From NCBI GenBank assembly GCA_000165345.1, contig CM000435.1, positions 448,001 through 512,000 on the forward strand: a stretch of 64,000 nucleotides of DNA. Direction: 5' to 3'. Shown in pieces: positions 4,601 through 25,211 of this stretch. Within the stretch, counting starts at the first letter, position 1; each line of letters opens with the position of its first letter. A program made the translations under genes and the position numbers. The notes beneath the pieces are model-generated. The model ran no database searches, was not told the origin of the DNA, and was given only the letters and a program-made list of their open reading frames with translations.

Positions 4601-4602
4601 CA

Positions 4603-8909: not shown

Positions 8910-11900
8910 TTAGATGCGTTTTTTGTGTTTGTAATGATGAGAATGAGTATTGTATGTTTGTTTCTGTTGATTTACGTTAACATTTGAGCTTATATTGCAT
9001 TGATTTCCTACACACTGAGAATCATAAGTTACAATTGCTTCAGTTTTCACTTGCTTAATACATTTTTCTCCTTCTTCCGTGAAACCCTAAAAATTGTAAT
9101 GAATTTAAATTAATTATCACAAAAAAAATTGATTATATTTTCTTTAACTTTTTTTAACTTACAATTGGACACCTAAACTTTGCCTGAGCAAATCTTAAGC
9201 AATGATTCTTTTTTAAAATTAACCCTGGTGGACAAATTCTTTTGTGACCTGAGTACTCAATCATAATACATTTATTTCCGGCTTCTACAAATCCTTTTGG
9301 ACATCTTGAAATCGGGTCAAGATATATCTTATTTTCACATGTATCATTTGGACATTCCTTCTTTAACATAGAGAAACATTGTCCATTTACCATCATGGAA
9401 TCTCTTGGACAGGAATTTACCGTGGAATGGTATTTTTCCCAAACACAAATTGCTTGATCTAGTTTATATCCATTAGGACAACTAACCTCAGGTTCTACAA
9501 CTTTCTGAGTTTTACAATCCTTGTGTTGACAAATCTTATCTTTATAAAGTACACACTTATCTCCACTTAGAATATACCCTTCAGAGGGGCAAATCATATC
9601 TTTTGGAACAATCTCGGATTCCTTACAAGTGTTTCCATTAACTAATTCTGTTCCATTTGGACAAACTTTATTGGGAGTTATTGTTTTCAATTCTTCACAA
9701 TTATTGTTTTGACATTCCTTGACTGAGTAAGTGAGACAACTTCCATTAGAAATAATAGATCCTTTTGGACAAGAGATTTGTCCATTATTAAATAGTTTTT
9801 TCGTGCAAATTGGTCCTCCGTAGTTCAAATTTTGAGAGTTCTTTTGGAATCCAGAAGGACAACTTAAGACTGGGGGGAAAGTTTCTTGGGCTAAACATCC
9901 TCCTCTTGGACAAATCGACTCAACTTCTCTAATACAATAAGAATTCATAAGATTTGTTCCAAGGGGACATTTCAATTGAGGAAGATGATGAACTCTTTTT
10001 GAACAATTTCCTCCAGGGAAAAGTGAATACTGATTAGGACACTCAATAATAGGAGGAAAATGAACTTTTTTCTCACATTGATTATTCAAACATTCCTTAT
10101 AGACATACTTGGCACATAAATCATCCTGAATAGTGAAATCCTTGGGACAAGTAAGAATAGAAGGACTTCTTTTGATACTTTCACATTGATTTCTGGAAAT
10201 CAAAGTTCCTTGCTTACATGTAATTCTTGGTGGAATTGAAATAGTAACTGAGCAGTTTCCTCCTGAACATTCTTTAGATACCTGGTGAACGCATTGATCT
10301 CCTACTAATTTGAACGGTTTAATACATTTCAAAATTTGAGGTCCAATATTAATTTTTTCGCAAAGTTTGGTTTTTGAGTTTAGGGTTTCATTCTCATCAC
10401 ATTTAAACTCTGGAGGCTCTTTATGAATGATCTCACAATTACTATATGAACAAATCTTAACAATTCTTTCAATACAAATTTGTTGATTTGCACTAGAAAG
10501 TTCTCCTCTTTCACAGGTTTTTTCTGGAAAGACTTCATGCTTAAATATACAAACCCCATCTTCAAAAACAAATCCTGGAGGACAAATTCGTATTGAATCG
10601 ATAATATTTCTCAAAGTACAACCTTCTGGAGGACAAATTTTGGTAGTTACTTGAATACAATTTCCTTCTTCCATAATATATCCCTCTTCACAAATTAATT
10701 CTGGAGCTTTTCTAACAATAGAGGCACATTTATTATCTTCAGTCATACTAGAGCCTGGAGGACAAATGTTAACTTTTGGGATCATAAATTCCTCAAAACA
10801 CGTTTCCAGGGTTTTTGTATGGTCTGAGCAGATTCTTGTCATTGGAAGATGTTCTTTCTTCATACACTCTTTTCCAATATTAATTGATCCCTGTGGACAG
10901 GAAATCTTTGGAGGAAAAGCCTCAGTTCTAGTACAAGTTTTATGATTTCTTATGGCTTGAGAACAAATTCCTGAGTTTCTTTGGCCATAAAATCCAAGAT
11001 TAGAAGTATTTATGGTATTGACTCCACTTCCACAAGGAACAGGAACAATACTTACCTCAGAACAATCATATTCAACCAATTTTTGGCATTGTTTGATCTC
11101 ACTCAAATAATATCCCTTGGGACATTCATAGGAAACATCTATAAAACTCTCAACCAGACAGGAATCTCCAATTTTAGTTCCTTTGAGACATTTATATTCA
11201 AGAGGAAGAGGCTTTCTTCCTCCACACATTCCTGAATCAAGTCCAATAGTTCCTTCTGGACATTGAGGTTTTGAGTCTGAAATATTAATTTGAACACAAT
11301 CTCCATATTTTCCTTCCCTTCCAAATCCTTCTGGACAAAAAGAACTAGGTTTTGAGGTCTTAAAGCATTCATCTCCGTTATCCAAAAATCCAGGAGGACA
11401 AATTTTACTTCTTTGTATTGTTTTATGACAACTCATATCTAATTCATTGATTTCATATCCTACTGGACAATTTAACTCTCCCTCAGCTCTTTTCTCTTTT
11501 ATACATTTATTTTCTATTAAAGAATATCCTTCTGGACAATTTGATTTGGCTCTAGTTTCTATAATACAGAAATTCTCATTTGTCGAATCTTCTCTAGATC
11601 CTTCTGGGCATATTTTTGGAATAACTTCAGTATAAATACATTCTCCTAGTGAATTCAAGGTACTGGGTTCCTGACAAACCAAATCTGGAGATCTTGTAGT
11701 AATTTTTGTACACTTTTGTGTCTCAGGATTATATTTGTATCCTTCAATACATTGCTTTTCCGGGGATTCTATAACTGAGCAATAACCTCCAGAATCTAAA
11801 GAATTCAAAGGACATTTTCTTTTTGAAGTATTTTCACTAGTTAAAATACAAACAGAGTCAGATAATTCTGAACCTGAGGGGCATACTGTCTCAGCTGGAG

Positions 11901-13290
11901 ATAGAATAACCTCTTCACATTGTCCATTCACTAAACTCTGGAGATTTGGACAGGTTCTTCTTGGGGATACAAAACTAGCACATTCATTTTCTCCAATCTC
12001 TTCGTATCCTGGGGGACAAACTTGGATATTTCTTTCATACCCAACACAAGTCGAAGTACTTTGTTCAAATTTAGAATTTGGAGGACAAATAATATTTGGT
12101 TCAATGGATAATATTTCCTGGCAAAAATGGTTTTCTGGGTTATATTTAGTTCCAGCAGGACATTCCCATTCTCCTTTTACTTTTTGTAAACACAAATCCT
12201 TAGATCTGAAAGAATTAGCAGGACATTCCTTTTCTAAGGTAATTTCTGAAATACAAAGCTTATTAGATTCATCAAAGTATGAATATTTATTTGGACAAGA
12301 TATTTCTGGTTCAACTGACAAAGTGTTTAAACAAACTTTGCTACCATTATGAATAGTTTGCTCATATCCCTCTGGACAATGAAACAAAGGTTCTTGGTAA
12401 TTTACGCATTGATCTTCAACTTCAACAAATCCTATGGGACAAACTCTATTATTAATTCTGGACATTGAAATACAAGTCTGACCCTCTAAAAAGGACCCAG
12501 GAGGGCACTCTAATGTAGGATTTGAATAGTTAATATACCTACAAAGAGATTGATGTCTAACATTCTCAAGCTGAGTCCCTTTTGGACAAATATATTCTGG
12601 TTGAATCCATGTAGCACATTTATCTTCATCAATATCCTTAAATCCTTCGGGACAAATCTTTGGCTCAATCTGATCTTGAATACACATCTTTAAAGAAGCA
12701 TCAAAAACAAAAGGTTCCGGACAAACTACAGTTGGAAGAGCTGCCTTTCTTTCAATACATAAATTTGTGTTAGAGTCAAATTTGTATGGTTCTTGACAAA
12801 TTTTCATCGGCTCTCTAGCCATCGCACAGGTGTCTCTAAAATTAATGCTCCCTGGAGGACAAATTGCCTTAACTTCCTCTTTGTAGTAACATTTACCTGT
12901 ATTATAATCCATTTCTAAGCCATCAAGACAATATTTTTCCTTTTCAGCAAAGACTTCTTTAACGCATTGTTTGTCTTGCATTTGAAAACCTGTAGGACAT
13001 TCCTTAAGGAGAGGCTCAGCCAAATAGCACTCTGATCCTTTGGATACAAATCCTTCTGGACAAACTGGAATCTTTTGTGTCTCAATTTGATGAACACAAA
13101 TTCCATTTACTAGTGCAAAATTACCTGGGCAGGTCTCCACAGGTACTCTCACATACTGAGAGTTAGTTGGAATACTAAAAAAAAGAAGAACTGAGGTCAA
13201 ACAAATTCTTGCAATTCCTGATAAACTAATCAAAATCATTTTTAGATCTCCGGTTTTATGTACCGGTATCTTCATGCTTTGTTTCCTCAT
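8910..13290 (-). CDS. COWP: Cryptosporidium oocyst wall protein family (COWP-type Cys-rich repeats) with a 3' intron. join(complement 9163..13290, 8910..9086), about 1434 aa
   Basis: Signal-like N-terminus, then dozens of CPxG(F/Y)...C and CxxxxC modules. ORF-track stop at 9154 sits inside GTAAGT. Splicing ATT|GTAAGT...TTTTTAG|GG keeps frame. Added exon reads GFTEEGEKCIKQVKTEAIVTYDSQCVGNQCN..., completing the interrupted CPI|GF..G..C module. Confidence 0.7.
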
Positions 13291-13558: not shown

Positions 13559-15601
13559 ATGATTCTGTTCGGGATTTTGTTTTGTTTTTTTGTTACGATA
13601 TTCTTTTCAATTTCCTCATTATTCTTTTTGTTATGTTTGGTTATTCGTAGAATTTATATGAGGAGATTAAATAATTATGCGACAACAAGGAATATTGCCG
13701 TTTTAGTTATTGGAGATATAGGTAGGAGTCCAAGGATGCAAAACCATGCTTTGTGTATTTCCAAGAGATTTTGCTCCAAGTTAGATTCTTTGGGGAAAAC
13801 TGGAAAGCTAGTAAATAGAAAGGGGAATAAAGATATTAACCAGAAGCTGGACGACAAAATCAATAATAACCACGTTTATTTGGTTGGATATAATGAAACT
13901 ATTTGTAGTTCAGCTGTGACTGGAGACAAAAATATTACTTTACAAGGTATTGAGAAAACTTTTGTGGAACAATACAGAAAGGTTCTCCCATTGTGGGCTT
14001 TTCTATTCATGAAAGTAGTTGAACAGTCATTGAGGATTTTCATAACAATCATGAAAATTCCAAACCTCTCTGGGATAGTATTACAAGCTCCTCCATCTAT
14101 ACCGGCAATTCCTATTGCTTTGTTAGTTTCTTATATTAAAGGAGCTCATTTAATAATTGACTGGCATAATTATGGTCATACTTTGTTAATAGCCGATAAA
14201 AGAGAGAATAGTCAATTCTCTTTGATCAGGAGAATATACCAACAAATTTTGGTTAATAGTTACAAAATATTAGAGTTCTCGTTAGGAAGACTTTCACATT
14301 CTTCATTTTGTGTTTCTAAAGCCATGCAGGAAGACTTAGCAAAAAGGGGAATTCAAGCAACAGTGGTATATGATAGGCCTAATGATGACTTTAAACCTTT
14401 GGATTCTATCTCAAAGAGACATTCTGTCTTGTTTAAATACTTTGGCAGTTTAGAGAATGAGATTTGTTCTGAGAATTCTAGTTTAGGAGATCAATGCACT
14501 CAAAATACCTTCAATAGAAAGGCTCAAGGAGAAAATAAAAGTAAAACGAAATCCAGAGAAGAGAAAAAATCTGCTCAAAATAACAAGAAAAATAACACAA
14601 AGACAAAAGACGCTTTATTATACGATGAATCTTTGACAAATGTCAAGGATTTGGAATCTGTATCTTTAAATAAATCAGTCTTAGATATGCATCAAATTAG
14701 TGAGAGCATTAATACAAATCTCACAGAACAAGGAAAAGGTTCTGCTAGGACCTCTTTGTTTTCTAAGTCTTTAATAGAGGAAGAATTCTTCTTTGAAATA
14801 GATTCAAGAATCTTGGATGAAATCTCTTCCAACTTCAAAAGTCAGGACTTGAAGGAACTATTAACAAGAGATGATTTATTTTTTGATAATCATATTTTCG
14901 AGACTTCACCTGTAACTGATTTAGGAATTTCTTGCGATCAAATTGATAATAAGATTTCATTAAAGATACAACTCAAGAAGAACAGGCCAGCAGTTTTGAT
15001 AACTTCCACTAGTTGGACTCCTGATGAAGATCTTAACTTATTACTTGAAGGCCTTGTGGAATATGATAAACTTGTTTCAAAACAATTAGGAAACGATAAC
15101 TTATCTAAGAAGCTTCCTGACATATTTCTTATCATTACAGGTAAAGGCCCAAACAAGAATTCATGGTTAGAAAAAGCTTCAAAAACTAAGATGAAACATG
15201 TGAGTATTAGAACAGTCTTTGTTGAAGCTGACGACTATCCAAAGCTGCTAGCTTGTTCAGACTTGGGAATTTCTATGCATTACTCTTCTAGCGGGTTGGA
15301 TCTCCCAATGAAAGTAGTTGATATGCTTGGAGCAGGAATTCCGATAATTTCATTCTCATATCCAACTATTAACGAGCTTTTAAAGAGTGAGAAACTTGAG
15401 TTGTTATTTTCAAACCCTCAAGAGCTTTGTTCTAGAATTACTACTTTACTTGAGGGTTTCAATTCAAGTCTTGAAAAAGAAGCTCTGCCTTCTCCAAATT
15501 TGAACAAGATCCTCAAGTCTAACAACTCAAAGAAAAGAGAAACTTTCTATCAGGAATGGAACAATTCGGCTGTCTATCATTTCGATGAAATGGTAATTTA
15601 A
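13559..15601 (+). CDS. ALG1: ALG1 chitobiosyldiphosphodolichol beta-1,4-mannosyltransferase (GT33) with K/S/N-rich insertion
   Basis: First ATG in ORF frame 13529..15601. N-terminal TM helix, then NIAVLVIGDIGRSPRMQNHA (ALG1 hallmark GDxGRSPRMQ[YN]HA). C-terminal GT-B fold motifs. Low-complexity insert around 14450-14900. Confidence 0.8.
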   Translation: MILFGILFCFFVTIFFSISSLFFLLCLVIRRIYMRRLNNYATTRNIAVLVIGDIGRSPRMQNHALCISKRFCSKLDSLGKTGKLVNRKGNKDINQKLDDKINNNHVYLVGYNETICSSAVTGDKNITLQGIEKTFVEQYRKVLPLWAFLFMKVVEQSLRIFITIMKIPNLSGIVLQAPPSIPAIPIALLVSYIKGAHLIIDWHNYGHTLLIADKRENSQFSLIRRIYQQILVNSYKILEFSLGRLSHSSFCVSKAMQEDLAKRGIQATVVYDRPNDDFKPLDSISKRHSVLFKYFGSLENEICSENSSLGDQCTQNTFNRKAQGENKSKTKSREEKKSAQNNKKNNTKTKDALLYDESLTNVKDLESVSLNKSVLDMHQISESINTNLTEQGKGSARTSLFSKSLIEEEFFFEIDSRILDEISSNFKSQDLKELLTRDDLFFDNHIFETSPVTDLGISCDQIDNKISLKIQLKKNRPAVLITSTSWTPDEDLNLLLEGLVEYDKLVSKQLGNDNLSKKLPDIFLIITGKGPNKNSWLEKASKTKMKHVSIRTVFVEADDYPKLLACSDLGISMHYSSSGLDLPMKVVDMLGAGIPIISFSYPTINELLKSEKLELLFSNPQELCSRITTLLEGFNSSLEKEALPSPNLNKILKSNNSKKRETFYQEWNNSAVYHFDEMVI

Positions 15602-15775: not shown

Positions 15776-16396
15776 TTATTCCTTATACTCGTTCTCTTGA
15801 TCCTCTTCCTCGTCATCATCATCAAAGAATTCTTCCTGTAATCTCTCTTTTAGCTCCAAATATATCTCATTAGTTGCGTCTCCTCTTAGAATATCCTTGA
15901 CAAAGTAGCATACAACTTGCATTTGAAGTTGTTCAAGGGCTCCTCTAATCACTCCACATACCATATTACTATAATTCAATGAAGATGAATAGCAAGGAGG
16001 AAGTTCCACAAAGTCAGCCAAGGGATTTTCATTGAATACTAGAACGCATGAAGTTTCTTCCGGATTCCAATCCTTGGTTTCAGCAGTAATTCCAAGAAAC
16101 ATCTTAAAACCAACACAAGCTATAACCTCTGCTGTATCTCTAAAACTATCACATTTTGAAATACCGGATTTGGCAAGGAATTCATCCACAAGACGAATAC
16201 CAATATTATATCCAATCTTCTCAAGCTTTGAATTAATTAGTTCAGCATTATCAAGATCTTTAACAAATTGAGCAACTAAACTTCCATACATAAGAGAGAA
16301 AACTTCCCCATTAATCTTTTCAGTTTTTTGAAAGGCGAGTTCTCCCATTCTAAGATATTCAGAACGTTTTTTGTACTGATTTGAAGAATTTGACAT
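15776..16396 (-). CDS. BET3: TRAPP complex subunit Bet3/TRAPPC3
   Basis: FSLMYGSLVAQFVKDLDN...IGYNIGIRLVDEFLAKS...FRDTAEVIACVGFKMFLGI...FVELP...SNMVCGVIRGALEQLQM aligns throughout with Bet3. Confidence 0.85.
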   Translation of the reverse strand: MSNSSNQYKKRSEYLRMGELAFQKTEKINGEVFSLMYGSLVAQFVKDLDNAELINSKLEKIGYNIGIRLVDEFLAKSGISKCDSFRDTAEVIACVGFKMFLGITAETKDWNPEETSCVLVFNENPLADFVELPPCYSSSLNYSNMVCGVIRGALEQLQMQVVCYFVKDILRGDATNEIYLELKERLQEEFFDDDDEEEDQENEYKE

Positions 16397-16804
16397 TTCC
16401 TGGAATTAAAAGAAACTATATTTGAGAGTTAATCAGAGTCAAATTAGGCGCAAAACCAAGGTAAAGTAAAAAAAGGACATTATCAGCAATAATTTGAGAA
16501 AAAATAAAAAAGACCTAAAATTCAGAAATTTCTAGACAACTAGGATTAAAAAAGGGATATATTTCTGATTCCTTTTATGAAAAAAATATTGTAAAACTTT
16601 TAGTAGGAAAGAAATATAATAAACTTAGTTATACAACATTTCCGTCCTACCTCCAAATCAAGAGAATTAAAGTATTGAGTCGAAATAATAAGAAGTCAAC
16701 AAAATATAATAAACAGGGAATGCAATTTCGACCTTCTGTTTAATTAATATCTATTAGATGCGAGCGATTAAAAATTTCAATGATTAAAATGAGGGGTACA
16801 TAAG

Positions 16805-16818
16805 TTTGGGCGCCAAAT
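16805..16818. promoter_or_regulatory. palindromic E2F site TTTGGGCGCCAAAT in the Bet3/USP divergent promoter
   Basis: Sequence aagtttgggcgccaaatac, about 50 nt 5' of USP ATG. Confidence 0.55.
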
Positions 16819-16863
16819 ACTGTGGGTACTTTTTTGTTTTTAGGTATCTTCAACATTGCAAAA

Positions 16864-18828
16864 ATGTTCCGTAATAAATCGTTTTTGAAATTCTGTTTCT
16901 TATATATTTTATATTTTTTCACCTTTTATTTTTCGATGGTTGTTACAATATCTTTAAGAAGTCCAAGCAACTCAGGAAAGAAATTGGACTTGGAAAGTTT
17001 AAAGGAAAGTCTTGTTAAGGGTGGTCAGGACCACATTTTAAATTTGTTGGAGTCTGGCGATTCTGATAATGTAAATAGACTAATTTCTCAGTTAATGACT
17101 TTGGAAACTTCGTGTGTGGGTGGTGGGTTACTTGGATATATTAACAGAGCTAAGAAGTTATTGAAAGACTCAAAGGACGGTGTTAATCCAAGAGAAGGGT
17201 GTTATCCTGAGGTTCCAGAGGTAGTTAACTTAGATGTTGGTACTGAAGACTTTAAAAAATATGAGGAGCACGGCTTTTCTGTCCTAAAAAATGTTGCCTT
17301 TGTTTTGGTAGCTGGCGGTTTGGGTGAAAGACTTGCATTTGAGGGAATAAAAATAGGAATCGAGCTGTCAATGGCTTCCAACATCACATTTTTCCAGTTA
17401 TACACAAACTATATCAGGGAGTATCAGAGAAGGTTGAAGGAGGCTTTCGGAGAAGATATTGTAATTCCTTTGCTTATCATGACATCTGATGATACTGACA
17501 GTATGACTAGAAAGTTTTTGGAAGAAAATGATCATTTTGGCTTGAGAGAGGACCAGGTGTATATAGTAAAACAACTCAAGGTCCCTGCTTTGATAGATTC
17601 TGATGCAAAGATTGCATTGGATCCTGAAGACAAATACTCAATCTTAACAAAGCCTCATGGCCACGGAGATATTCACACTTTGCTCCATGCTTCAGGACTT
17701 TTGAAGGATCTTTTTGAGAAAGGAGTAAGATTTTTGGTTTTCATCCAAGATACAAATGCTTTAGTTTTTAATTCAGTACTTCCAGTATTGGGAGTTACAT
17801 CAATGAATTCATTCGTGATGAATAGTTTGACAATTCCCCGTATTCCATGCGAGGCAGTTGGCGCTTTGTGTAAGCTCAGATATCCAGATGGAAAGAAAAT
17901 TACTATTAATACAGAATATAACCAGCTCACTCCTTTACTCAAGAGCTGCGGTTTAGGATCAGATTTTGCTGATGAAAAGACAGGATACTCTCCTTTCCCT
18001 GGAAATTCGAACGTCTTGTTCATTTCAATGGATTACTATATGAAGACCTTGGAAAAGACTGGGGGAGTTGTACCTGAATTTGTGAACCCTAAGTATTTGG
18101 ACTCAACTAAAACAGCATTCAAAAGCCCAACTCGTTTAGAATGTATGATGCAAGATATTCCACTCTTATTTGAGGCTGATTACAAGGTTGGATGCGTGCA
18201 AATGCAGAGATGGGCTACATTCTCTGCTTGCAAGAATAGCTTGGCCGAGGGAAGAGCAAAACATAGTGCAGGAGTCTCCATAGATACCGCCTCTATAACA
18301 GAAGGCGACTTCTATGCAGCTGCCTCACAATATTTGAGATTGGCATCAATTGAAAAGGGTGTAGTTTGTAGAATTGAGGAGAGTGGAAGGGATCCAGTCA
18401 CTGGAAAGGATGATAAGAACTCTCTAATCAAACACGAAATGATCGCCGGAATTCCAGTCAGAGTTGGAGCAATGGTTGTTTTGCACCCTTCATTCGCAAT
18501 TAAGTATTCTGATCTTCTCCAAAGGATTCAGGCTGGTCCTATTATTATTACAAGTAGATCCTATGTGCATTTAGAAGGAGATGTGGTGATCAGTGGAAAA
18601 TTCTTTGTAGACGGTTCAGTTAGAATTGTGGCAAAGAACGGCTCAAGGATTATTATTAAGAATCTCATTGTTAACAATAATGGAACCACTAGATATCATA
18701 TTTCTGAGCAGGATATGGGACATGCAACCAGCAATCAAAAAATCAGAGGATATGGAATTAGACACGAGCAAATAAGGGAAATTATCTCGGATAACGGAGA
18801 AGAAGTTATTATCGACGATCAAAACTGA
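16864..18828 (+). CDS. USP: UDP-sugar pyrophosphorylase (USP, plant/Leishmania type)
   Basis: FVLVAGGLGERLAFEGIKIGIE signature, plus nucleotidyltransferase core and C-terminal left-handed beta-helix. First ATG 16864. Alternative start at 16936 (MVVTISL) is possible. Confidence 0.75.
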   Translation: MFRNKSFLKFCFLYILYFFTFYFSMVVTISLRSPSNSGKKLDLESLKESLVKGGQDHILNLLESGDSDNVNRLISQLMTLETSCVGGGLLGYINRAKKLLKDSKDGVNPREGCYPEVPEVVNLDVGTEDFKKYEEHGFSVLKNVAFVLVAGGLGERLAFEGIKIGIELSMASNITFFQLYTNYIREYQRRLKEAFGEDIVIPLLIMTSDDTDSMTRKFLEENDHFGLREDQVYIVKQLKVPALIDSDAKIALDPEDKYSILTKPHGHGDIHTLLHASGLLKDLFEKGVRFLVFIQDTNALVFNSVLPVLGVTSMNSFVMNSLTIPRIPCEAVGALCKLRYPDGKKITINTEYNQLTPLLKSCGLGSDFADEKTGYSPFPGNSNVLFISMDYYMKTLEKTGGVVPEFVNPKYLDSTKTAFKSPTRLECMMQDIPLLFEADYKVGCVQMQRWATFSACKNSLAEGRAKHSAGVSIDTASITEGDFYAAASQYLRLASIEKGVVCRIEESGRDPVTGKDDKNSLIKHEMIAGIPVRVGAMVVLHPSFAIKYSDLLQRIQAGPIIITSRSYVHLEGDVVISGKFFVDGSVRIVAKNGSRIIIKNLIVNNNGTTRYHISEQDMGHATSNQKIRGYGIRHEQIREIISDNGEEVIIDDQN

Positions 18829-18913
18829 ATAAATTTAATCTCACGCATATTTTTAGTACTTTTTTTAAAATTATTATTAGTTTTGTTTAATTTTTAATGT
18901 AAATTAAGACATT

Positions 18914-18926
18914 TTTGCATGCAAAA
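18914..18926. promoter_or_regulatory. TTTGCATGCAAAA palindrome upstream of CDPK
   Basis: GCATGC core 18917-18922. Confidence 0.4.
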
Positions 18927-18960
18927 TTCCCCCCTCATAATATAATTTTTACCCTTCAAG

Positions 18961-18985
18961 TGCCCGCCCATTTTTGGCGGGCAAA
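18961..18985. promoter_or_regulatory. inverted-repeat E2F-like element TGCCCGCCcatttttGGCGGGCA about 100 nt 5' of CDPK
   Basis: Two GGCGGG cores in opposite orientation around a T-rich spacer. Confidence 0.5.
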
Positions 18986-19082
18986 CACATTAATGCAGAT
19001 TTATCCATGGAAACGTATTTCTTAGGAAAAAAGTAAATTTGTCAGGAATAAAGTACAAGTCATGTAAAAAACCCAAAAAAGC

Positions 19083-21113
19083 ATGGTTTTGATATCATGG
19101 GAATGTGTGTGTGATCTGACACATCCTGGACAGTCTTTGTATGTGGTAGGGAGCCACCCAAGACTGGGAGCTTGGAAGATTACAACTGAGCAAGAGGAAA
19201 ATAAGCCTATTCGACTTATTACTGACAAACTTTCCTATCCAGTCTGGAGGACAAGCGAGCCTATTAGGATTCGAGGTGCATGTCTTTTAGAGTATAAGTT
19301 TATTATTAGTAAGGAAACTGAACCGTACGAGAATCTAGAGTGGGAGCCAATTCAAGGAAACCGATACTTACAAGTCGACGAGAATTTTCCAGAATATAAG
19401 TATATTATTCATTGTAGTTGGGGAAATATTTCTAAAAGCACGATAAGGTTTGAAGAATATTTCGGTAATGATGGCAAAGTTGATGATTACTCATATAGAG
19501 CAAAGCCTGGAGCAAGGTATATTTCACCGGAAAATGCAGAAATATATTCTGAGGAGGATGAAGAACCTAAAGACAGAGGTGCTTATGAAAGCTCTGTAAC
19601 ACCTCCGCTAATGTTGAGTAGGACAGGGTCCAGATTAAGACTTCTATTGGACAGATCCAGATTTATTTTGAGCACCAAAGGTGACATCAACCAATATTAT
19701 ACTTTGGAAAATACTATAGGAAGGGGTTCTTGGGGTGAGGTAAAAATAGCTGTCCAGAAAGGAACCAGAATTCGTAGGGCAGCAAAAAAGATTCCAAAGT
19801 ACTTTGTTGAAGATGTTGATCGTTTTAAACAGGAAATCGAAATTATGAAGTCTTTGGATCATCCAAACATAATTAGGCTATACGAAACTTTTGAAGATAA
19901 TACTGATATATATTTGGTTATGGAACTATGTACTGGAGGAGAGCTTTTTGAAAGAGTTGTACACAAGAGAGTTTTCAGAGAAAGCGATGCTGCAAGAATT
20001 ATGAAAGATGTTTTAAGCGCTGTAGCTTATTGCCATAAGTTAAATGTGGCTCATAGGGATTTGAAACCTGAGAATTTCCTTTTCTTGACAGATTCTCCAG
20101 ATTCTCCCTTAAAATTGATTGACTTTGGCTTGGCAGCTAGATTCAAGCCTGGAAAAATGATGAGGACAAAGGTTGGAACTCCATATTATGTGAGCCCGCA
20201 GGTTTTGGAAGGTCTTTATGGCCCAGAGTGTGATGAATGGTCAGCAGGAGTAATGATGTACGTTTTGCTTTGTGGCTACCCTCCTTTCAGTGCACCTACA
20301 GATTCTGAGGTAATGCTTAAGATCAGAGAAGGAACATTTACATTTCCAGAAAAAGACTGGCTTAATGTTTCTCCTCAGGCAGAATCTTTAATAAGGAGGC
20401 TGTTGACAAAGTCTCCAAAACAAAGAATTACTTCTTTGCAAGCATTAGAACATGAGTGGTTTGAGAAACAACTTTCTTCATCTCCAAGGAACTTATTGCT
20501 AGATAATGTAATCTCTAACTTTAGAAGGTTCCAGGGCCTTTCAAGATTAAAAAAGATTGCTTTAACATTAATAGCTCAAAACATTGATGAAAGAGATATC
20601 CTAGATTTACACGACACATTTATGGAATTGGATACAAGTAGAGATGGAACGCTGAGCAGAGCCGAGATCATTGAAGGAATTAATAGAACAGGTTGTAGTC
20701 CAACAATTGGGATCGATGCTCTTCTTGACGAAATTGATCCTGAAGGTACTGATACTATTTCTTATACAGACTTTATTGCAGCTTGCATTCAAGAGCGGCA
20801 AATGTCCCATGAAAGTGCATGCAAAGCGGCATTTAGAGTATTTGACATTGATGGAGATGGACAGATTAGTAATATAGAATTTCTCAAGGTCATGTCTCTT
20901 TCTAGTAAGGCTAAAAAATCAGACGATGAACTAGCTCAAGAACTGAGCGAATTTATGAAATCAGGAGATTTAGATAAGGATGGAACGATTAATTTCGATG
21001 AGTTCTGCCATGTGATGAGAAGAGTCCCATCCAAATTTCTCCTTGGGGAGGCTTCTGATGACACAATAAATATGATGAAAAGATGTTCCTCTAGAACTAA
21101 CATTAATTTATAG
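19083..21113 (+). CDS. CDPK: calcium-dependent protein kinase with N-terminal CBM20 starch-binding domain and 4 C-terminal EF hands
   Basis: CBM20-like N-terminus (LYVVGSHPRLGAWK...EYKF), Ser/Thr kinase core (HRDLKPENFLF, DFGLA, GTPYYVSPQVL), EF hands DTSRDGTLS, DPEGTDTIS, DIDGDGQIS, DLDKDGTIN. Confidence 0.9.
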   Translation: MVLISWECVCDLTHPGQSLYVVGSHPRLGAWKITTEQEENKPIRLITDKLSYPVWRTSEPIRIRGACLLEYKFIISKETEPYENLEWEPIQGNRYLQVDENFPEYKYIIHCSWGNISKSTIRFEEYFGNDGKVDDYSYRAKPGARYISPENAEIYSEEDEEPKDRGAYESSVTPPLMLSRTGSRLRLLLDRSRFILSTKGDINQYYTLENTIGRGSWGEVKIAVQKGTRIRRAAKKIPKYFVEDVDRFKQEIEIMKSLDHPNIIRLYETFEDNTDIYLVMELCTGGELFERVVHKRVFRESDAARIMKDVLSAVAYCHKLNVAHRDLKPENFLFLTDSPDSPLKLIDFGLAARFKPGKMMRTKVGTPYYVSPQVLEGLYGPECDEWSAGVMMYVLLCGYPPFSAPTDSEVMLKIREGTFTFPEKDWLNVSPQAESLIRRLLTKSPKQRITSLQALEHEWFEKQLSSSPRNLLLDNVISNFRRFQGLSRLKKIALTLIAQNIDERDILDLHDTFMELDTSRDGTLSRAEIIEGINRTGCSPTIGIDALLDEIDPEGTDTISYTDFIAACIQERQMSHESACKAAFRVFDIDGDGQISNIEFLKVMSLSSKAKKSDDELAQELSEFMKSGDLDKDGTINFDEFCHVMRRVPSKFLLGEASDDTINMMKRCSSRTNINL

Positions 21114-21257
21114 TCTACTTTTTAGTATTAACTAATACTATTACGGGCTACTAAGTAGAAAAGGACTAGGAGGCCTTAGTTTTGATGGTTATATTTGGTG
21201 CATTATTTCTATGTGTATTCATTAATTGTATATAATTAAAGTTTACTTAACTCAGAA

Positions 21258-24200
21258 TTAGGCATTTTCCAGGATATTTTCATCTCCTGCACCTTCTTCT
21301 GCCTTTTCTCTGTCTCTATGAACGGAGGTTTTGCTTTTAACATCAGAAGAATAGTTACCCGGTATAATTGAGACAGATTTAGTAATGTCAAATGTTTTGT
21401 AAATCCCGACGAGCCTATCAGCCATTTCGAACATATGGTTTCTGAGAGAAACAACGATAAACTGAGCATTCTTGGTTTTCTCTTTAATGAATGTTGCGAT
21501 AATACTAACATTTCTAAAGTCCAGGGCTGCATCTACCTCGTCCATAAAATAGAGTGGCGACGGCCTAAATTGGTGTAGGGCAAATACTAGGGCAAGGGAA
21601 CTTAGGGTTTTTTCTCCTCCAGAAAGGTTATGAATGGGTCTCCAACTCTTTTTTGGTGGCCTTACTGAGAAAATTATACCGTCAGAAAATGGATCCACAC
21701 TATCAATCAATTCCAATTCAGCATCTCCACCAAGGGTAATCATCTGGTAAATTTCCTTAAGTTGAGATGCAATAATTTTGAAGCCAGAAATAAACTCAGA
21801 ATGTCTGGCCTGCCTTACAGTTTCAAGGTGTCTCCTGCTTTCATCTCTAGCATTAGTTGCTTCTTCAACTTCTTGGTTTCTTCTATTAAAGAGTTGGAGC
21901 TGACTAGAATACTGGGAGAAGATATCTGAGGAAGGTCTGAATTGTTTTACGGAGCCTTCATTTGAATATTGCTCACAAATTGCCTGGAGCTGTGCCTGCA
22001 AAGACTCAATATGCGGCTTAAGTTTTTTAGAAGTCATATCACCAAGTATTTTCTCATATTCGGCATCCTGAACATCCTGAATAAGGAATTTGCTCTTTAA
22101 AGACTCTAATTCAGAATTTTTTTCTGGCGCTGGTTGCTCACTCTTTTCAGGTTCTATTTCCGGAATAGATGGAATACAAGATGCATCTGCTCTGACCTTT
22201 TGGAGCTTTTTTTGTAGTTGCTTTATATTTTGACTTTCAACTTCAGAGATTTTTGCAGAAATCTCATTCAGTTTGTTGGATATCTCTACATCACGGAGCT
22301 CAAGTTTTTCAATTTCCCTTTCAATCTCTTCAAATCTAGCTTGGAATGAACTGTGTTCATTTAAAAATGAGTTCAACTCCTCTTCAGCGAGTTTCTTGCT
22401 TTCCATAATCTTCAGTGCGACTTCTTCAAGTGAAACAAGCTCAGATTCTGTCTTATCAATCGCTTCCTTAAGAGCCTTGGACTTATTTTCAAACTGTTCA
22501 ATGGATTCGATGGCCTTAAGTTTCTTTTTCTCAGACAAAGTAATTTCTACCTGGCTCTTGCTGATTTCACTTTCCAGAGCTCCAATAGTTTTTGTAAGTT
22601 CCTGAACAAGTTCAGATTGTTTCTTCATTTCTGGGCCTCCAATTTCGTTCATCTCATTTGTGAGGCGATCTACAACAATTTGCTTTTGCTTCAAAGAAGC
22701 TTCTAGGGTAGAGATTTGTTTTTTCAACCCCTCAATTTCAGATTCTAATCTTGAGATTTCTGCCATAATCTCTGTCTGATTACTAGGAGATTCTTGGCCA
22801 GTTTTGGACTGAATCTCAGATCTAGACTTTTCAGTCTCTTCTATTGAAGCAAGTTCAATCTTGATTTTCTCAAGGGTAATTGTATAGCCATTAATATCAT
22901 TTTTAAGGTTTTGAACATGATCTTCCAAATCCTTGCATTCAGATTTAATTTTATTGCATTTATTTTGACAGGCCTCTAAATCTGTCTCCATTTTTTTAAG
23001 CTGCTCAGGAGTGGGAATTTCTGAAGTCTTTTCCAACTTTTTACCAGCGTGCTTTGCAACAGAAACATTAGGGCCGCCTCCTGTCATTGTTCCACTGGAG
23101 TCGATCAATTCCCCATTAATAGTTACAACTCTCCATCTTTGCTTTCCATTATAGGAAATTTTGGTTGCAATATCGAGGTCATCGACAATTAGAGTGTCCC
23201 TCATTGCAAAATACCAGGCGATCTTGAATTTAGGGTCCTTAAACTTAACAAGATCAAAGAACCTTTTTGACCCTTCTGGAGCTTTAAATGTTTTTTCCAT
23301 ATTTTGTATTAGAGTAGCAGAAAGTTTTTCCAAGATAATACACGAGATCCTGCCCAAATTTGATTTTCTCACATAATTAACAACTTCTTGTGCATCTTCA
23401 GTAGTCTGCACAACGATGTTTTCAACCTGCGGCACTGAGGAGGCCAGAGCAAGTTGGAATTTGTCATCCACCTGACCCAAATCCCCCAGTCTTCCGTGTA
23501 CTCCACTTTTTTTATTTGCAGAAAAATATTTCATAACAGTTTCTGATAATGACATCTTGGGACCTTTTTGCTTTGATTCAGAAACAACCTTAGTTTCTAA
23601 GTGATTATTTGAAGCTAAAAGGCTTCTTGCTTCATCTAACTCGACCTTTTTTATACCTAGAAGTCTGGTATTCTCACTTAGATCTTTCTGTAGCTGTTCA
23701 AGCTTCTTAGATTTTTCATCAAGAAGAGCCTTACTGTCCTTTAGATTCTTAGAAAAATCCTTATTTTGCTTATTTAGAGCTTGAATCCTTTTAACAGTAT
23801 TTTCTTTCTCCCTCTTACTATTTTCTTCGTTTTCCTGTTTTTGAATCTGCCTTTGTTTCAACATATCCAATTCAATATTTAACATATCATGAGATTGTTG
23901 GAGATCTAAAAGCTTCTTTTGTAGTGGCGATAGCTCCTGCTCCGCCTTATCCTTCTTCTTTCTAGACTCTTCAATCCCATCCTTAACATTCTTCTGCAAC
24001 AATTCCAGCTTCTCCTGAGCAGAGTCGAGGTCCTTCGAGATCTTTGGGAGTTGCTTTTGTTTCTTTCGAACTTCATCTTCCAAATCAACGATTTTTTGCT
24101 CTAACTCTGGTATAAGTTTTTTTTCACCTTCCGCTGATTCCTCAAGTTTCAAAAGTCTTTTTTTTGAATTCTTTAAAGTGGCTCTCAGTTCCTCATCCTT

Positions 24201-25211
24201 CAGTAATATATTCTTAAACTCATTTTCCTCCTTCTCTAACTTAACCTTTAATTCGTTAACTCTGGAATTAGTCTCTTTGTTCTCAACTTCAAGCTCAGCT
24301 CGCCTATCTTCTAAGGCTTTCTTTTGGTGAGCTAGCTCTCCTCTAATATCCAAGTGTTTGTTTTGCTCATCTTTCAACGCATTCAAGTGTTTTATAGCAT
24401 CTCTTTGTTCCTCCAAATGAAGTAATAGCTTGGCAATGTAAATTTCTCTCTCAAGAGTAAAGAATTCAATAGCCATATTATAAGGACCTTTCAGAGTATT
24501 AAGCTCCTTCTCTGCGATTTTAAGTCTATTCAACTTTTCTTGACGAAGTTCATTAAACTGTTCAAGTTCCATTAAATGCTTTTCTATATCAGGAATAAAT
24601 CTGCTACTCCCTATAATATCCTCAATATATTCAAGCAAGCCATCCTCGTTGGCATTTGTAGATTTTGGCTTCATCTGAGCAATTAATTCAACCTCTCCTT
24701 GAAGGATTAGAAACCTATTATGCTCCAAGTCAGTCCCTTTTCCACTTAATAACTTAGTGACTTCCTGATAACTTGAAAGCTTTTCATTAATATAGTATTT
24801 TGTTTGCTCACTATTTTTATGTACCTCTCTCTTTATCACAATCTCAGAATTAGGAACGACTTTGTAGGCATGCTCATCTCCAGGTACATCTATAATTTCT
24901 TTAAAATGCACTGCAACACTTGCCTTTTCATTGTTTGGGTAATGCTTGGAGTTATGAATCAGTTCAGAAACTTTATTCAAGCGCATATGCTTTGCTCTTT
25001 TCCCAAACACAAATAGCATTGCATCTATTACATTACTTTTACCACTTCCATTTGGCCCCACAATCGCAGTAAACGACTTGTGAAATGGTCCAATAACCTT
25101 GCTGCCTCCATAAGATTTAAAATTTTCCAGAACTATCTTATGGATAATCAAGCGTGGTTTTTCTTGCTCTCCTCCAACGGATTTTGACTCGTCACTTTCT
25201 ATGTTCTCCAT
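21258..25211 (-). CDS. SMC4: SMC family ATPase, best match condensin SMC4
   Basis: Walker A GPNGSGKSNVIDAMLFVFG, long coiled coils, hinge, C-terminal signature LSGGEKTLSSLALVFALH and Walker B FYFMDEVDAALD. N-terminal FKSYGG...GPFHKSF..IVGPNGSGKSN fits SMC4. First ATG (MENIESDE) at 25211. ORF-track upstream extension uses a TTG. Confidence 0.8.
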   Translation of the reverse strand: MENIESDESKSVGGEQEKPRLIIHKIVLENFKSYGGSKVIGPFHKSFTAIVGPNGSGKSNVIDAMLFVFGKRAKHMRLNKVSELIHNSKHYPNNEKASVAVHFKEIIDVPGDEHAYKVVPNSEIVIKREVHKNSEQTKYYINEKLSSYQEVTKLLSGKGTDLEHNRFLILQGEVELIAQMKPKSTNANEDGLLEYIEDIIGSSRFIPDIEKHLMELEQFNELRQEKLNRLKIAEKELNTLKGPYNMAIEFFTLEREIYIAKLLLHLEEQRDAIKHLNALKDEQNKHLDIRGELAHQKKALEDRRAELEVENKETNSRVNELKVKLEKEENEFKNILLKDEELRATLKNSKKRLLKLEESAEGEKKLIPELEQKIVDLEDEVRKKQKQLPKISKDLDSAQEKLELLQKNVKDGIEESRKKKDKAEQELSPLQKKLLDLQQSHDMLNIELDMLKQRQIQKQENEENSKREKENTVKRIQALNKQNKDFSKNLKDSKALLDEKSKKLEQLQKDLSENTRLLGIKKVELDEARSLLASNNHLETKVVSESKQKGPKMSLSETVMKYFSANKKSGVHGRLGDLGQVDDKFQLALASSVPQVENIVVQTTEDAQEVVNYVRKSNLGRISCIILEKLSATLIQNMEKTFKAPEGSKRFFDLVKFKDPKFKIAWYFAMRDTLIVDDLDIATKISYNGKQRWRVVTINGELIDSSGTMTGGGPNVSVAKHAGKKLEKTSEIPTPEQLKKMETDLEACQNKCNKIKSECKDLEDHVQNLKNDINGYTITLEKIKIELASIEETEKSRSEIQSKTGQESPSNQTEIMAEISRLESEIEGLKKQISTLEASLKQKQIVVDRLTNEMNEIGGPEMKKQSELVQELTKTIGALESEISKSQVEITLSEKKKLKAIESIEQFENKSKALKEAIDKTESELVSLEEVALKIMESKKLAEEELNSFLNEHSSFQARFEEIEREIEKLELRDVEISNKLNEISAKISEVESQNIKQLQKKLQKVRADASCIPSIPEIEPEKSEQPAPEKNSELESLKSKFLIQDVQDAEYEKILGDMTSKKLKPHIESLQAQLQAICEQYSNEGSVKQFRPSSDIFSQYSSQLQLFNRRNQEVEEATNARDESRRHLETVRQARHSEFISGFKIIASQLKEIYQMITLGGDAELELIDSVDPFSDGIIFSVRPPKKSWRPIHNLSGGEKTLSSLALVFALHQFRPSPLYFMDEVDAALDFRNVSIIATFIKEKTKNAQFIVVSLRNHMFEMADRLVGIYKTFDITKSVSIIPGNYSSDVKSKTSVHRDREKAEEGAGDENILENA

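What the first reader, a model, noticed from the sequence alone, without database searches (positions are those of the whole stretch)
16805..21113. UDP-sugar pyrophosphorylase directly upstream of a CBM20-containing CDPK: candidate carbohydrate-storage gene pair
A USP gene (UDP-glucose/UDP-sugar supply) is followed 255 bp later, on the same strand, by a CDPK whose N-terminus is a CBM20 starch-binding module. In Toxoplasma the CBM20-bearing CDPK2 controls amylopectin turnover. Apicomplexan amylopectin is UDP-glucose based. The shared intergenic carries an inverted-repeat GGCGGG element (18961-18985) plus a GCATGC palindrome. The adjacency may reflect co-regulation of polysaccharide metabolism. 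ALG1 and the oocyst-wall gene are also nearby.
Basis: inference. Interest (0 to 1): 0.5.

Follow-up and report, generated by a model that had tools for sequence, protein, structure and literature searches.

The report
Known Cryptosporidium USP and CDPK2 neighbours
These are two already annotated Cryptosporidium parvum genes, a UDP-sugar pyrophosphorylase and the starch-binding kinase CDPK2; they probably work on the same storage sugar, but they appear to be ordinary neighbours with separate, generic promoters and not a special co-regulated unit.

Summary
The window is C. parvum chromosome 7. ORF 16864-18828 is cgd7_1830 (UDP-sugar pyrophosphorylase). ORF 19083-21113 is cgd7_1840 (CpCDPK2: CBM20 + kinase + EF hands), and its kinase domain is 100% identical to PDB 2QG5. 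The genes lie 254 bp apart on the same strand.

Both genes and the CBM20 architecture are already published. So is the assignment of USP to the female-gamete "energy storage" set.

Both genes rise 4-6 fold in female gametes, but so do COWP2, ALG1, SMC and a longer run of chromosome-7 neighbours. In sporozoites and in a 72-h time course the two genes do not group together.

The adjacency holds in all six Cryptosporidium species checked, with spacers of 236-2790 bp. It is absent in Toxoplasma, Cyclospora, Porospora and Vitrella.

The GGCGGG inverted repeat is conserved and non-random. It stays with the CDPK2 start codon, not with the USP 3' end. It belongs to the generic E2F-like promoter motif class, found in 12 of 17 promoter-bearing intergenic regions here. 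GCATGC is not conserved.

Verdict: known genes in a plausible shared pathway, probably adjacent by accident. Low novelty.

The parts
9154..13290 (-). Context: COWP2 (cgd7_1800), a cysteine-rich oocyst-wall/suture protein of 1378 aa
   Evidence: ORF. cgd7_1800 = cowp2 in PMC12548878, which mentions serine 1373 near the C-terminus. Female logFC 8.5.
13559..15601 (+). Context: ALG1-like GT1 mannosyltransferase (cgd7_1810)
   Evidence: Pfam Glyco_trans_1_4 and Glycos_transf_1. Named ALG1-like, female logFC 2.16.
16805..16817 (.). E2F-like near-palindrome TTTGGGCGCCAAA, 47-59 nt upstream of the USP ATG. On the - strand it reads TTTGGCGCCC, matching published motif 3 (DTTGSCGCCH).
   Evidence: Sequence. 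GGCGCC lies at -55 in C. parvum and -62 in the 95%-identical species. It sits 10 nt before the start called in L009. C. canis has GGCGGG instead, at -131 from its annotated ATG. All 7 GGCGCC hexamers in the window are non-coding. Motif definition from PMC3734150.
16864..18828 (+). UDP-sugar pyrophosphorylase CDS, cgd7_1830, 654 aa
   Evidence: Pfam UDPGP. Best PDB relatives are USPs. Listed as USP, EC 2.7.7.64, 654 aa, 1 TMD in PMC9713705. Orthologues in 9 Cryptosporidium species.
16864..16935 (+). N-terminal 24-codon hydrophobic extension of USP (MFRNKSFLKFCFLYILYFFTFYFS), ending just before a conserved second Met at 16936
   Evidence: An in-frame ATG, a hydrophobic stretch and a following conserved Met are present in all 6 Cryptosporidium species examined. 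Maximum 15-aa Kyte-Doolittle mean is 1.65-3.0. Absent from Hammondia and Vitrella USP.
18829..19082 (+). 254-nt spacer between the USP stop and the CDPK2 ATG. It functions as the CDPK2 upstream region.
   Evidence: Spacer is 250, 236 and 241 nt in close relatives, 705 nt in C. xiaoi and 2790 nt in C. serpentis.
18916..18923 (.). TGCATGCA palindrome, matching the published binding site of AP2 cgd2_3490
   Evidence: 7 of 8 TGCATGCA in the window are non-coding. At this locus it is not conserved: GCATGA, GTATGC and GCATGT in the three closest species.
18961..18983 (.). Inverted repeat TGCCCGCC-N7-GGCGGGCA: two E2F-like GGCGGG cores facing each other, 100-122 nt upstream of the CDPK2 ATG
   Evidence: Both arms are invariant and the 7-nt spacer varies in 4 species. 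The right arm TTTGGCGGGCAA matches published motif 4 (TTTGGCGGGAAV) at 11 of 12 positions. Counterparts exist in C. serpentis and C. xiaoi.
18990..19006 (+). Conserved block TTAATGCAGATTTATCC of unknown role
   Evidence: Nearly invariant in the 4-species alignment.
19062..19067 (+). ATGTAA start-stop mini-uORF, 21 nt upstream of the CDPK2 ATG
   Evidence: TCATGTAA is invariant in 4 species. ATGTAA lies at -21, -21, -19 and -22 in those species and at -9 in C. serpentis. Whether it is transcribed is unknown.
19083..21113 (+). CpCDPK2 CDS, cgd7_1840, 676 aa
   Evidence: Residues 194-472 are 100% identical to PDB 2QG5 and 3F3Z. P0001 is 100% identical over the full length. Architecture CBM20.KD.EF.EF.EF.EF, 676 aa, in PMC3227725.
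19113..19385 (+). CBM20 starch-binding module (aa 11-101)
   Evidence: Pfam CBM_20, 44.4 bits against a cut-off of 23.3. Aligns to the CBM20s of maltotetraohydrolase 7CZJ and glucoamylase 1AC0. The G-W, P-W, EYK, WE and NR positions are invariant from Cryptosporidium to Vitrella.
19698..20462 (+). Protein kinase domain (aa 206-460)
   Evidence: Pfam Pkinase 1.2e-71. Crystal structures 2QG5 and 3F3Z. Measured kcat 240 per min on Syntide-2 (PMC3227725).
20595..21023 (+). Calcium-activation domain with EF hands (about aa 505-647)
   Evidence: Pfam EF-hand_7, EF-hand_1 and EF-hand_6 hits, the best at aa 578-647. Aligned through residue 647 with full-length CDPK structures 4MVF and 3LIJ.
21258..25211 (-). 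Context: SMC protein (cgd7_1850), convergent with CDPK2
   Evidence: Pfam SMC_N and SMC_hinge. Female logFC 1.35.

Best explanation
The locus holds two separately promoted, already annotated C. parvum genes.

cgd7_1830 is the parasite's UDP-sugar pyrophosphorylase. It is the only enzyme listed for making UDP-glucose and UDP-galactose, and so it feeds amylopectin, trehalose and glycan synthesis.

cgd7_1840 is CpCDPK2, the orthologue of Toxoplasma CDPK2. By inference from Toxoplasma, it docks on amylopectin granules through its N-terminal CBM20 and, on a Ca2+ signal, phosphorylates glucan-turnover enzymes.

The two therefore act on the same polymer from opposite ends: supply or commitment versus mobilisation. 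Both are switched up in female gametes, where amylopectin is laid down for the oocyst. That rise is shared with a longer stretch of chromosome-7 neighbours.

The tandem adjacency arose within the Cryptosporidium lineage. It is most simply a by-product of genome compaction and general genus-wide collinearity, not a selected unit.

The 254-nt spacer is the CDPK2 promoter and leader. Its conserved inverted GGCGGG pair is a double site of the generic E2F-like class. USP has its own E2F-like site upstream.

What is shown: gene identities, domain architecture, motif statistics, synteny pattern and the published expression values. What is inferred: granule docking, the substrates of CpCDPK2, E2F/DP binding, and the accidental origin of the adjacency.
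For: Identity and architecture.

CBM20 binding residues are conserved across CDPK2 orthologues.

Toxoplasma precedent:
- TgCDPK2 binds amylose resin and granules (PMC9729606).
- Its loss causes amylopectin over-accumulation, which is rescued by deleting starch synthase (PMC8205521).
[quoted passage not shown] Granules are cytoplasmic and made from UDP-glucose (PMC9254107).
- TgUSP is described as the commitment step (PMC12306163).

Expression:
- Female logFC is 2.09 (USP) and 2.56 (CDPK2). It is 8.5, 2.16 and 1.35 for COWP2, ALG1 and SMC.
- 673 genes are up in females genome-wide.
- About 10 of 18 genes between cgd7_1680 and cgd7_1850 are up in females, binomial P about 3e-4.
- Raw correlation of USP with CDPK2 across the 12 samples is 0.91, no higher than for other female-up genes (0.81-0.96).

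Separate promoters:
- E2F-like hexamers occur in 12 of 17 promoter-bearing intergenic regions and in 0 of 7 convergent ones.
- The USP upstream region carries GGCGCC and the CDPK2 upstream region carries GGCGGG x2.
- In C. serpentis the repeat stays 77-104 nt from the CDPK2 ATG, although USP ends 2.7 kb away.

Synteny:
- Present in six Cryptosporidium species.
- Absent in T. gondii, Porospora, Vitrella (checked from both genes) and Cyclospora.
Against: - The chance of a neighbour from the 21-gene energy-storage list is only about 1%, so coincidence is not comfortable.
- Within-group residual correlation between the two genes is 0.63. It is 0.64 for the other neighbour, SMC.
- About 5% of C. 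parvum genes lie in reported polycistrons, whose internal spacers usually carry E2F motifs. I could not see the list.
- No functional data exist for CpCDPK2 or CpUSP. The only CpCDPK2 papers found are structural, kinetic or evolutionary.
- The conserved N-terminal hydrophobic segment of USP is unexpected for a purely cytosolic supplier.
Confidence: 0.72

Rival explanations
1. The pair is a selected, co-regulated storage-polysaccharide module, possibly transcribed as a dicistron. The internal E2F-like pair would then produce the downstream monocistron at some stages.
For: - Same strand, and a short spacer of 236-254 nt in four species.
- Both genes are up in females and sit in the same sorted-cell co-expression sheet.
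- Neighbour-in-pathway probability is about 0.011.
- 201 polycistrons are reported in C. parvum, and 160 of the 201 internal spacers carry an E2F motif.
- Residual correlation is 0.63.
Against: - The spacer grows to 705 nt in C. xiaoi and 2790 nt in C. serpentis.
- USP has its own E2F-like site.
- CDPK2 is sporozoite-enriched: log2 values of 10.0, 5.9 and 7.8, with the column order sporozoite, 24 h, 48 h inferred from the sample order in the paper's code. USP is absent from the complete sporozoite list.
- The two genes fall in different clusters of the 72-h time course.
- They are not adjacent outside the genus.
- The same co-upregulation and residual correlation hold for the unrelated neighbours.
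Confidence: 0.12
2. The inverted repeat acts as an RNA hairpin in the CDPK2 5' leader. Together with the conserved AUGUAA start-stop uORF, it would throttle translation, for example of maternal mRNA stored from the female gamete into the sporozoite. This need not exclude a DNA-level role.
For: - Predicted stems of -14.3 to -19.6 kcal/mol, with z-scores of -1.8 to -3.9 in five species.
- In the four close species the arms are invariant and the loop varies.
- The C. serpentis element has different arm sequences (TATACCGC / GCGGTATA) that are still complementary around the same CCGC/GCGG core.
- The C-to-T change in C. canis and L009 keeps a G-U pair on the + strand.
- ATGTAA is conserved close to the ATG in five of six species.
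- CDPK2 mRNA is highest in sporozoites.
Against: - No transcription start site is known, so the element may not be transcribed.
- In C. xiaoi the two GC cores (GCGGGG at 3011 and AGGCGGTAT at 3030) are in direct orientation and cannot pair. What is conserved genus-wide is therefore a pair of GCGG cores, not a stem.
- The cores match the motif that marks promoters throughout the window and, per the literature, open chromatin.
- The four close species show no covariation, because the arms never vary.
Confidence: 0.15
3. Cryptosporidium USP is mainly a membrane-anchored or secretory-pathway enzyme serving glycosylation, alongside neighbours ALG1 and COWP2. The link to cytosolic amylopectin and CDPK2 would then be spurious.
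For: - A conserved in-frame hydrophobic N-terminal segment in all six species.
- One TMD predicted in PMC9713705.
- Source names such as 'secreted UDP-N-acetylglucosamine pyrophosphorylase family'.
- Detected in an invasion secretome.
Against: - It is the only UDP-glucose/UDP-galactose-forming enzyme listed for the parasite. Cytosolic amylopectin and trehalose synthesis need that product.
- A Met is conserved immediately after the hydrophobic stretch in all species, so a cytosolic short isoform is possible.
- The secretome list also contains glycolytic enzymes, so presence there is weak evidence.
- Tandel 2019 places the gene in the energy-storage set.
Confidence: 0.12

Closest known systems
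Toxoplasma gondii CDPK2 (TGME49_225490)
   Same: Same architecture: CBM20, kinase and four EF hands. It is 46% identical over 99% of the length and is among the best hits outside Cryptosporidium. The CBM20 binding residues are invariant between the two.
   Different: No functional work exists for the Cryptosporidium protein beyond in vitro kinetics and crystal structures of the kinase domain. The genomic neighbours differ: SYS1, an unknown gene and PMSR in Toxoplasma.
UDP-sugar pyrophosphorylases: Leishmania major USP (PDB 3OGZ/3OH0), MbUSP (9UML) and T. gondii TGME49_218200
   Same: UDPGP fold. The nucleotide-binding loop VLVAGGLGERL is present. The alignment with MbUSP runs to residue 662, so it includes the C-terminal domain. 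E-values are 1e-64 to 1e-113.
   Different: The Cryptosporidium proteins carry a genus-specific N-terminal hydrophobic extension followed by a conserved second Met. Substrate range is untested.
C. parvum E2F-like upstream motifs 3 (DTTGSCGCCH) and 4 (TTTGGCGGGAAV) of Oberstaller et al. 2013, and the E2F motifs in ATAC-seq peaks of Xiao et al. 2025
   Same: Same core sequences, restricted to non-coding DNA and located 50-300 nt upstream of start codons.
   Different: At CDPK2 two cores form an inverted pair with a fixed 7-nt spacer. This is the only such pair in the 64 kb. A two-core arrangement persists across the genus. E2F/DP binding to it has not been shown.
C. parvum polycistronic transcripts (Xiao et al. 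2025)
   Same: Tandem same-strand genes with a short spacer that contains an E2F motif.
   Different: The spacer is not kept short in C. xiaoi or C. serpentis.

Membership tests
UDP-sugar pyrophosphorylase (EC 2.7.7.64, UDPGP superfamily) | UDPGP (PF01704) catalytic domain | tested here: met
   75.1 bits against a cut-off of 22.
UDP-sugar pyrophosphorylase (EC 2.7.7.64, UDPGP superfamily) | Closer to characterised USPs than to UGP or UAP enzymes | tested here: met
   USPs score 1e-113 to 1e-64, UAPs about 1e-21 and UGPs about 1e-11. Top database hits are named UTP-monosaccharide-1-phosphate uridylyltransferase or USP.
UDP-sugar pyrophosphorylase (EC 2.7.7.64, UDPGP superfamily) | Glycine-rich nucleotide-binding loop and C-terminal domain | tested here: met
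   VLVAGGLGERL aligns with the same loop of MbUSP. The alignment extends to residue 662 of 668.
UDP-sugar pyrophosphorylase (EC 2.7.7.64, UDPGP superfamily) | Broad hexose/pentose-1-phosphate substrate range | not testable with these tools
   Needs an enzyme assay.
CBM20 starch-binding module | Match to the family profile above the curated threshold | tested here: met
   PF00686, 44.4 bits against 23.3, aa 11-101.
CBM20 starch-binding module | Conserved binding-site aromatic and lysine residues. The site assignment for glucoamylase W543, W563, K578 and W590 is from my own knowledge of the A. niger domain. | tested here: met
   LGAW, YPVW, EYKF and LEWE align with LGDW, DPLW, EYKF and VEWE of 1AC0. 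These positions are invariant in 8 CDPK2 orthologues.
CBM20 starch-binding module | Binds alpha-glucan | not testable with these tools
   Shown only for TgCDPK2, by amylose resin binding and granule localisation (PMC9729606).
Calcium-dependent protein kinase, CDPK2 orthogroup | Active Ser/Thr kinase domain followed by a four-EF-hand activation domain | tested here: met
   Pkinase 1.2e-71 plus EF-hand families. Crystal structures 2QG5 and 3F3Z. kcat 240 per min (PMC3227725).
Calcium-dependent protein kinase, CDPK2 orthogroup | N-terminal CBM20 shared with coccidian, gregarine and chromerid CDPK2 | tested here: met
   PF00686 is listed for the Toxoplasma, Besnoitia, Cyclospora, Eimeria, Vitrella and Porospora top hits.
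Calcium-dependent protein kinase, CDPK2 orthogroup | Controls amylopectin turnover | not tested
   No Cryptosporidium genetic data were found. Known for Toxoplasma only.
E2F-like cis element of C. parvum promoters | Core GGCGGG or SGCGCS within a T/A-flanked consensus, in upstream non-coding DNA | tested here: met
   The right arm TTTGGCGGGCAA matches motif 4 at 11 of 12 positions. USP upstream TTTGGCGCCC (- strand) matches motif 3. All 16 such hexamers in the window are non-coding.
E2F-like cis element of C. parvum promoters | Evolutionary conservation at the locus | tested here: met
   Invariant in 4 species. GGCGG-type cores lie upstream of CDPK2 in C. serpentis and C. xiaoi.
E2F-like cis element of C. 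parvum promoters | Bound by E2F/DP | not testable with these tools
   Needs EMSA, protein-binding microarray or ChIP.
AP2 (cgd2_3490) site [T/C]GCATGC[A/G] | Sequence match | tested here: met
   TGCATGCA at 18916-18923.
AP2 (cgd2_3490) site [T/C]GCATGC[A/G] | Conserved in orthologous promoters | tested here: not met
   GCATGA, GTATGC and GCATGT in the three nearest species.
Conserved functional gene cluster or dicistron | Adjacency retained beyond general genome collinearity | tested here: not met
   Not adjacent in Toxoplasma, Cyclospora, Porospora or Vitrella. Within the genus the flanking genes are equally collinear.
Conserved functional gene cluster or dicistron | Expression more alike than that of other neighbours | tested here: not met
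   Raw r is 0.91, against 0.93-0.96 for CDPK2 with COWP2, ALG1 and SMC. Residual r is 0.63, against 0.64 for SMC. The genes diverge in the sporozoite and time-course data.
Conserved functional gene cluster or dicistron | A single transcript spanning both ORFs | not testable with these tools
   The polycistron table is not held in the library.

The most novel reading that the evidence does not exclude
The pair is a genuine Cryptosporidium-specific storage-carbohydrate module. USP and CDPK2 would be co-transcribed or locally co-regulated. The genus-wide paired GCGG element and the conserved AUGUAA start-stop uORF would form a dedicated switch, giving CDPK2 its separate sporozoite-loaded output. 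The granule-bound kinase would also regulate the commitment enzyme USP, whose two conserved start codons yield membrane-anchored and cytosolic isoforms.
Probability: 0.08. Interest if true: 0.55.

Novelty: already known. Interest (0 to 1): 0.2.

Why it matters
Amylopectin is the fuel that keeps Cryptosporidium oocysts infectious, and CDPKs are drug targets that are absent from the host. If CpCDPK2 really gates amylopectin use, as its Toxoplasma orthologue does, it is a sensible transmission-blocking target. USP, as the only listed UDP-glucose source, is another.

That case rests on the two gene identities, which were already published, and not on their adjacency. The adjacency adds little. It is confined to one genus whose genomes are collinear throughout, and the motifs between the genes are the parasite's standard promoter signals.

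The details that are modestly new are these: a two-core E2F-like element kept upstream of CDPK2 across the genus, a conserved start-stop uORF, and the conserved dual-start N-terminus of USP.

Tried and rejected
- Polycistron membership. The supplementary table of Xiao et al. 2025 is not held under either identifier, and no paper contains cpbgf_7001840.
- Single-cell atlas (Walzer et al., Nature 2024). Not in the library. Two 2026 papers on female biology mention neither amylopectin nor CDPK.
- Oberstaller clusters. cgd7_1840 is in cluster 104 without cgd7_1830. The stored supplement is truncated, so the cluster of cgd7_1830 is unknown.
- USP terminator hypothesis for the inverted repeat. Rejected, because in C. 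serpentis the element stays with CDPK2, 2.7 kb from the USP stop.
- GCATGC as a conserved element. Rejected.
- A hidden gene in the 2.8-kb C. serpentis spacer. Only one 63-aa ORF and one short tandem repeat were found.
- A Vitrella CDPK on a contig of the same length as the one carrying USP. No kinase lies within 10 kb of USP.
- Secretome listing as evidence that USP is secreted. Discounted, because the same table lists glycolytic enzymes.
- Not used, because solved structures and clear orthologues already answered the identity questions: structure prediction, fold search, RNA-family searches and the large representative-protein search.

Full report
**What the window is.** The 676-aa ORF at 19083-21113 is 100% identical over residues 194-472 to the crystallised kinase domain in PDB 2QG5 and 3F3Z. 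It is 100% identical over its full length to a database protein carrying the C. parvum annotation string (P0001). The C. parvum kinome paper names those structures CpCDPK2 = cgd7_1840, with the architecture 'CBM20.KD.EF.EF.EF.EF, 676 aa', the same as TgCDPK2 (PMC3227725). The window is therefore C. parvum chromosome 7.

The gene order is exportin-1, an ARID protein, COWP2 (cgd7_1800), ALG1-like (cgd7_1810), a TRAPP subunit, USP (cgd7_1830), CDPK2 (cgd7_1840), SMC (cgd7_1850), emp24 and a KH protein.

**The observation.** The upstream ORF (ATG 16864, stop 18828, 654 aa) has a UDPGP domain. It is far closer to solved UDP-sugar pyrophosphorylases (1e-113 and 1e-64) than to UDP-GlcNAc or UDP-glucose pyrophosphorylases (1e-21 and 1e-11). 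A glycosylation review lists cgd7_1830 as 'USP, EC 2.7.7.64, 654 aa, 1 TMD' and as the enzyme behind UDP-Glc and UDP-Gal (PMC9713705).

The CDPK has a CBM20 that passes Pfam's threshold. The Trp/Lys/Trp positions that align with the glucoamylase starch-binding domain are present. They are invariant in CDPK2 orthologues from Cryptosporidium, Toxoplasma, Eimeria, Cyclospora, Porospora and Vitrella.

The spacer is 254 nt. It contains TGCATGCA (18916-18923) and the perfect inverted repeat TGCCCGCC-N7-GGCGGGCA (18961-18983).

**Are the motifs special?** They are non-random. GGCGGG occurs 9 times against 2.3 expected, the inverted pair once against 0 expected, and GCATGC 14 times against 5.6 expected. 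They are also generic.
- All 9 GGCGGG and all 7 GGCGCC hexamers of the window lie in the 22% that is non-coding.
- They occur in 12 of 17 intergenic regions that must hold a promoter, and in none of 7 convergent ones.
- They are the published E2F-like motifs 3 and 4 and the AP2 (cgd2_3490) site of C. parvum (PMC3734150).
- E2F motifs dominate open chromatin in sporozoites (Xiao et al. 2025).

USP has its own E2F-like site, TTTGGGCGCCAAA at 16805-16817. It is conserved at a similar distance from the start codon in close relatives.

**Which gene owns the inverted repeat?** I aligned the spacer from four species. Mean column identity is 77%. Both arms are invariant while the 7-nt spacer varies, and GCATGC is not conserved.

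In the deep-branching C. serpentis the USP-CDPK2 spacer is 2790 nt with no substantial ORF. A GC-containing inverted repeat, TATACCGC-N12-GCGGTATA, still sits 77-104 nt upstream of the CDPK2 ATG. The element therefore belongs to CDPK2 and not to USP or to both.

In C. xiaoi two GC cores (GCGGGG and AGGCGGTAT) lie 19 nt apart in direct orientation. GGCGG[T] also marks other intergenic regions in C. serpentis. What is kept across the genus is a pair of E2F-like cores, so I favour a double transcription-factor site.

A hairpin role is not excluded. Predicted stems score z = -1.8 to -3.9. The C. serpentis arms differ from the C. parvum arms yet remain complementary. A start-stop ATGTAA lies 9-22 nt before the ATG in five of six species. 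No transcription start site is available to settle whether these elements are transcribed.

**Synteny.** USP followed by CDPK2 on the same strand is found in six Cryptosporidium species. These are C. parvum, a 95%-identical species, C. canis, an unidentified Logan assembly, C. xiaoi and C. serpentis. The flanking ALG1, TRAPP and SMC genes are equally collinear, so nothing singles out the pair.

Outside the genus the genes are apart.
- T. gondii CDPK2 lies between SYS1, an unknown gene and PMSR.
- Porospora CDPK2 lies near Arc1p, prefoldin and PFK.
- Vitrella CDPK2 lies near PRP8 and DAHP synthase, and Vitrella USP has no kinase within 10 kb.
- Cyclospora CDPK2 has no UDPGP gene within 10 kb.

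**Expression.** In sorted parasites (Tandel 2019, PMC6877471), the mean log2 values are as follows.

| Gene | Asexual | Female in vitro | Female in vivo | logFC |
|---|---|---|---|---|
| USP | 7.80 | 9.89 | 9.38 | 2.09 |
| CDPK2 | 6.15 | 8.70 | 8.92 | 2.56 |

USP is in the authors' Fig. 4C 'energy storage' list and CDPK2 is not.

The signal is not pair-specific.
- COWP2 (8.5), ALG1 (2.16) and SMC (1.35) are also up in females, as are cgd7_1680, 1690, 1710, 1730 and 1760.
- That is roughly 10 of 18 consecutive genes, against a genome-wide rate of 673 in about 3900.
- The USP-CDPK2 correlation (0.91) is no higher than for CDPK2 with other female-up genes. The within-group residual correlation (0.63) equals that with SMC (0.64).
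- CDPK2 mRNA is highest in sporozoites (10.0, against 5.9 at 24 h and 7.8 at 48 h) and appears in the sporozoite-enriched lists. USP does not appear in that complete file.
- CDPK2 sits in cluster 104 of the 72-h time course without USP.

**Mechanism.** In Toxoplasma, amylopectin granules are cytoplasmic and built from UDP-glucose. CDPK2 acts through its CBM20, and its substrates are turnover enzymes (PMC9254107). It binds amylose and granules. Its loss causes over-accumulation, which is reversed by deleting starch synthase. USP is regarded as the commitment step.

Transferred to Cryptosporidium by orthology, USP supplies the precursor while CDPK2 controls mobilisation. That fits USP peaking in females and CDPK2 message persisting into sporozoites, which burn amylopectin. 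None of this has been tested in Cryptosporidium.

**Verdict.** These are known genes with known domain architecture, and the pathway assignment of USP is known. The adjacency is real and genus-wide, but it is best explained as an accident of a compact, collinear genome. The intergenic motifs are the CDPK2 promoter's copies of generic elements. The residual probability of about 0.1 that the pair is a true co-transcribed module can be settled by one look at existing long-read data.

Noticed in passing
window 16864-16938; L006 1786-, L007 about 1797-1872, L009 448-, L008 about 639-687, L001 about 3252-3327: In all six Cryptosporidium species USP has an in-frame upstream ATG, a 16-42-residue hydrophobic stretch and then a conserved Met (MVVT/MVTT/MATA). 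Hammondia and Vitrella USP lack the extension. This suggests a signal-anchored isoform plus a cytosolic isoform from a second start. Annotations differ between species (627-654 aa).
   Followed up: partly
window 19062-19067: An ATGTAA start-stop mini-uORF lies 21 nt upstream of the CDPK2 ATG. TCATGTAA is invariant in four species, and ATGTAA recurs at -9 in C. serpentis. Whether it lies in the 5' UTR is unknown.
   Followed up: partly
window 18990-19006: The block TTAATGCAGATTTATCC between the inverted repeat and the CDPK2 ATG is almost invariant in four species. It matches none of the named motifs.
   Followed up: no
window about 9154-25211 and beyond (cgd7_1680 to cgd7_1850): A run of female-gamete-upregulated genes lies on chromosome 7: Rab7, DMC1, ThrRS, CCp1, a P-type ATPase, COWP2, ALG1, USP, CDPK2 and SMC. 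That is about 10 of 18 consecutive genes against 17% genome-wide, which hints at domain-level co-regulation. The gene count is approximate.
   Followed up: partly
window 7637-9153: This 1.5-kb apparently convergent gap holds three TGCATGCA sites (8449, 8480, 8830) and short - strand ORF fragments (7963-8193, 8497-8628). It probably contains a small intron-containing gene that the ORF list misses.
   Followed up: no
L001 5211-8000 (C. serpentis): The spacer between USP and CDPK2 is 2.8 kb, 25% GC, with no ORF over 63 aa. The same spacer is about 250 nt in C. parvum-like species. It could be non-coding RNA, decayed sequence or an assembly issue.
   Followed up: partly
window, all intergenic regions: E2F-like hexamers (GGCGGG or GGCGCC) are present in 12 of 17 promoter-bearing intergenic regions and in none of 7 convergent ones. 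In this genome they work as a simple marker of promoter-containing spacers.
   Followed up: yes
L009 (Logan SRR31860986 contig, 8741 nt): An unidentified Cryptosporidium with 89% CDPK2 identity to C. parvum has 48% GC over this locus, against 33-41% in the other five species' loci.
   Followed up: no
window 4600-4608: The GGCGGG at 4603 sits only 3 nt from the predicted ATG of the exportin-1 ORF (- strand, ends at 4600). The true start of that gene may therefore be further downstream.
   Followed up: no
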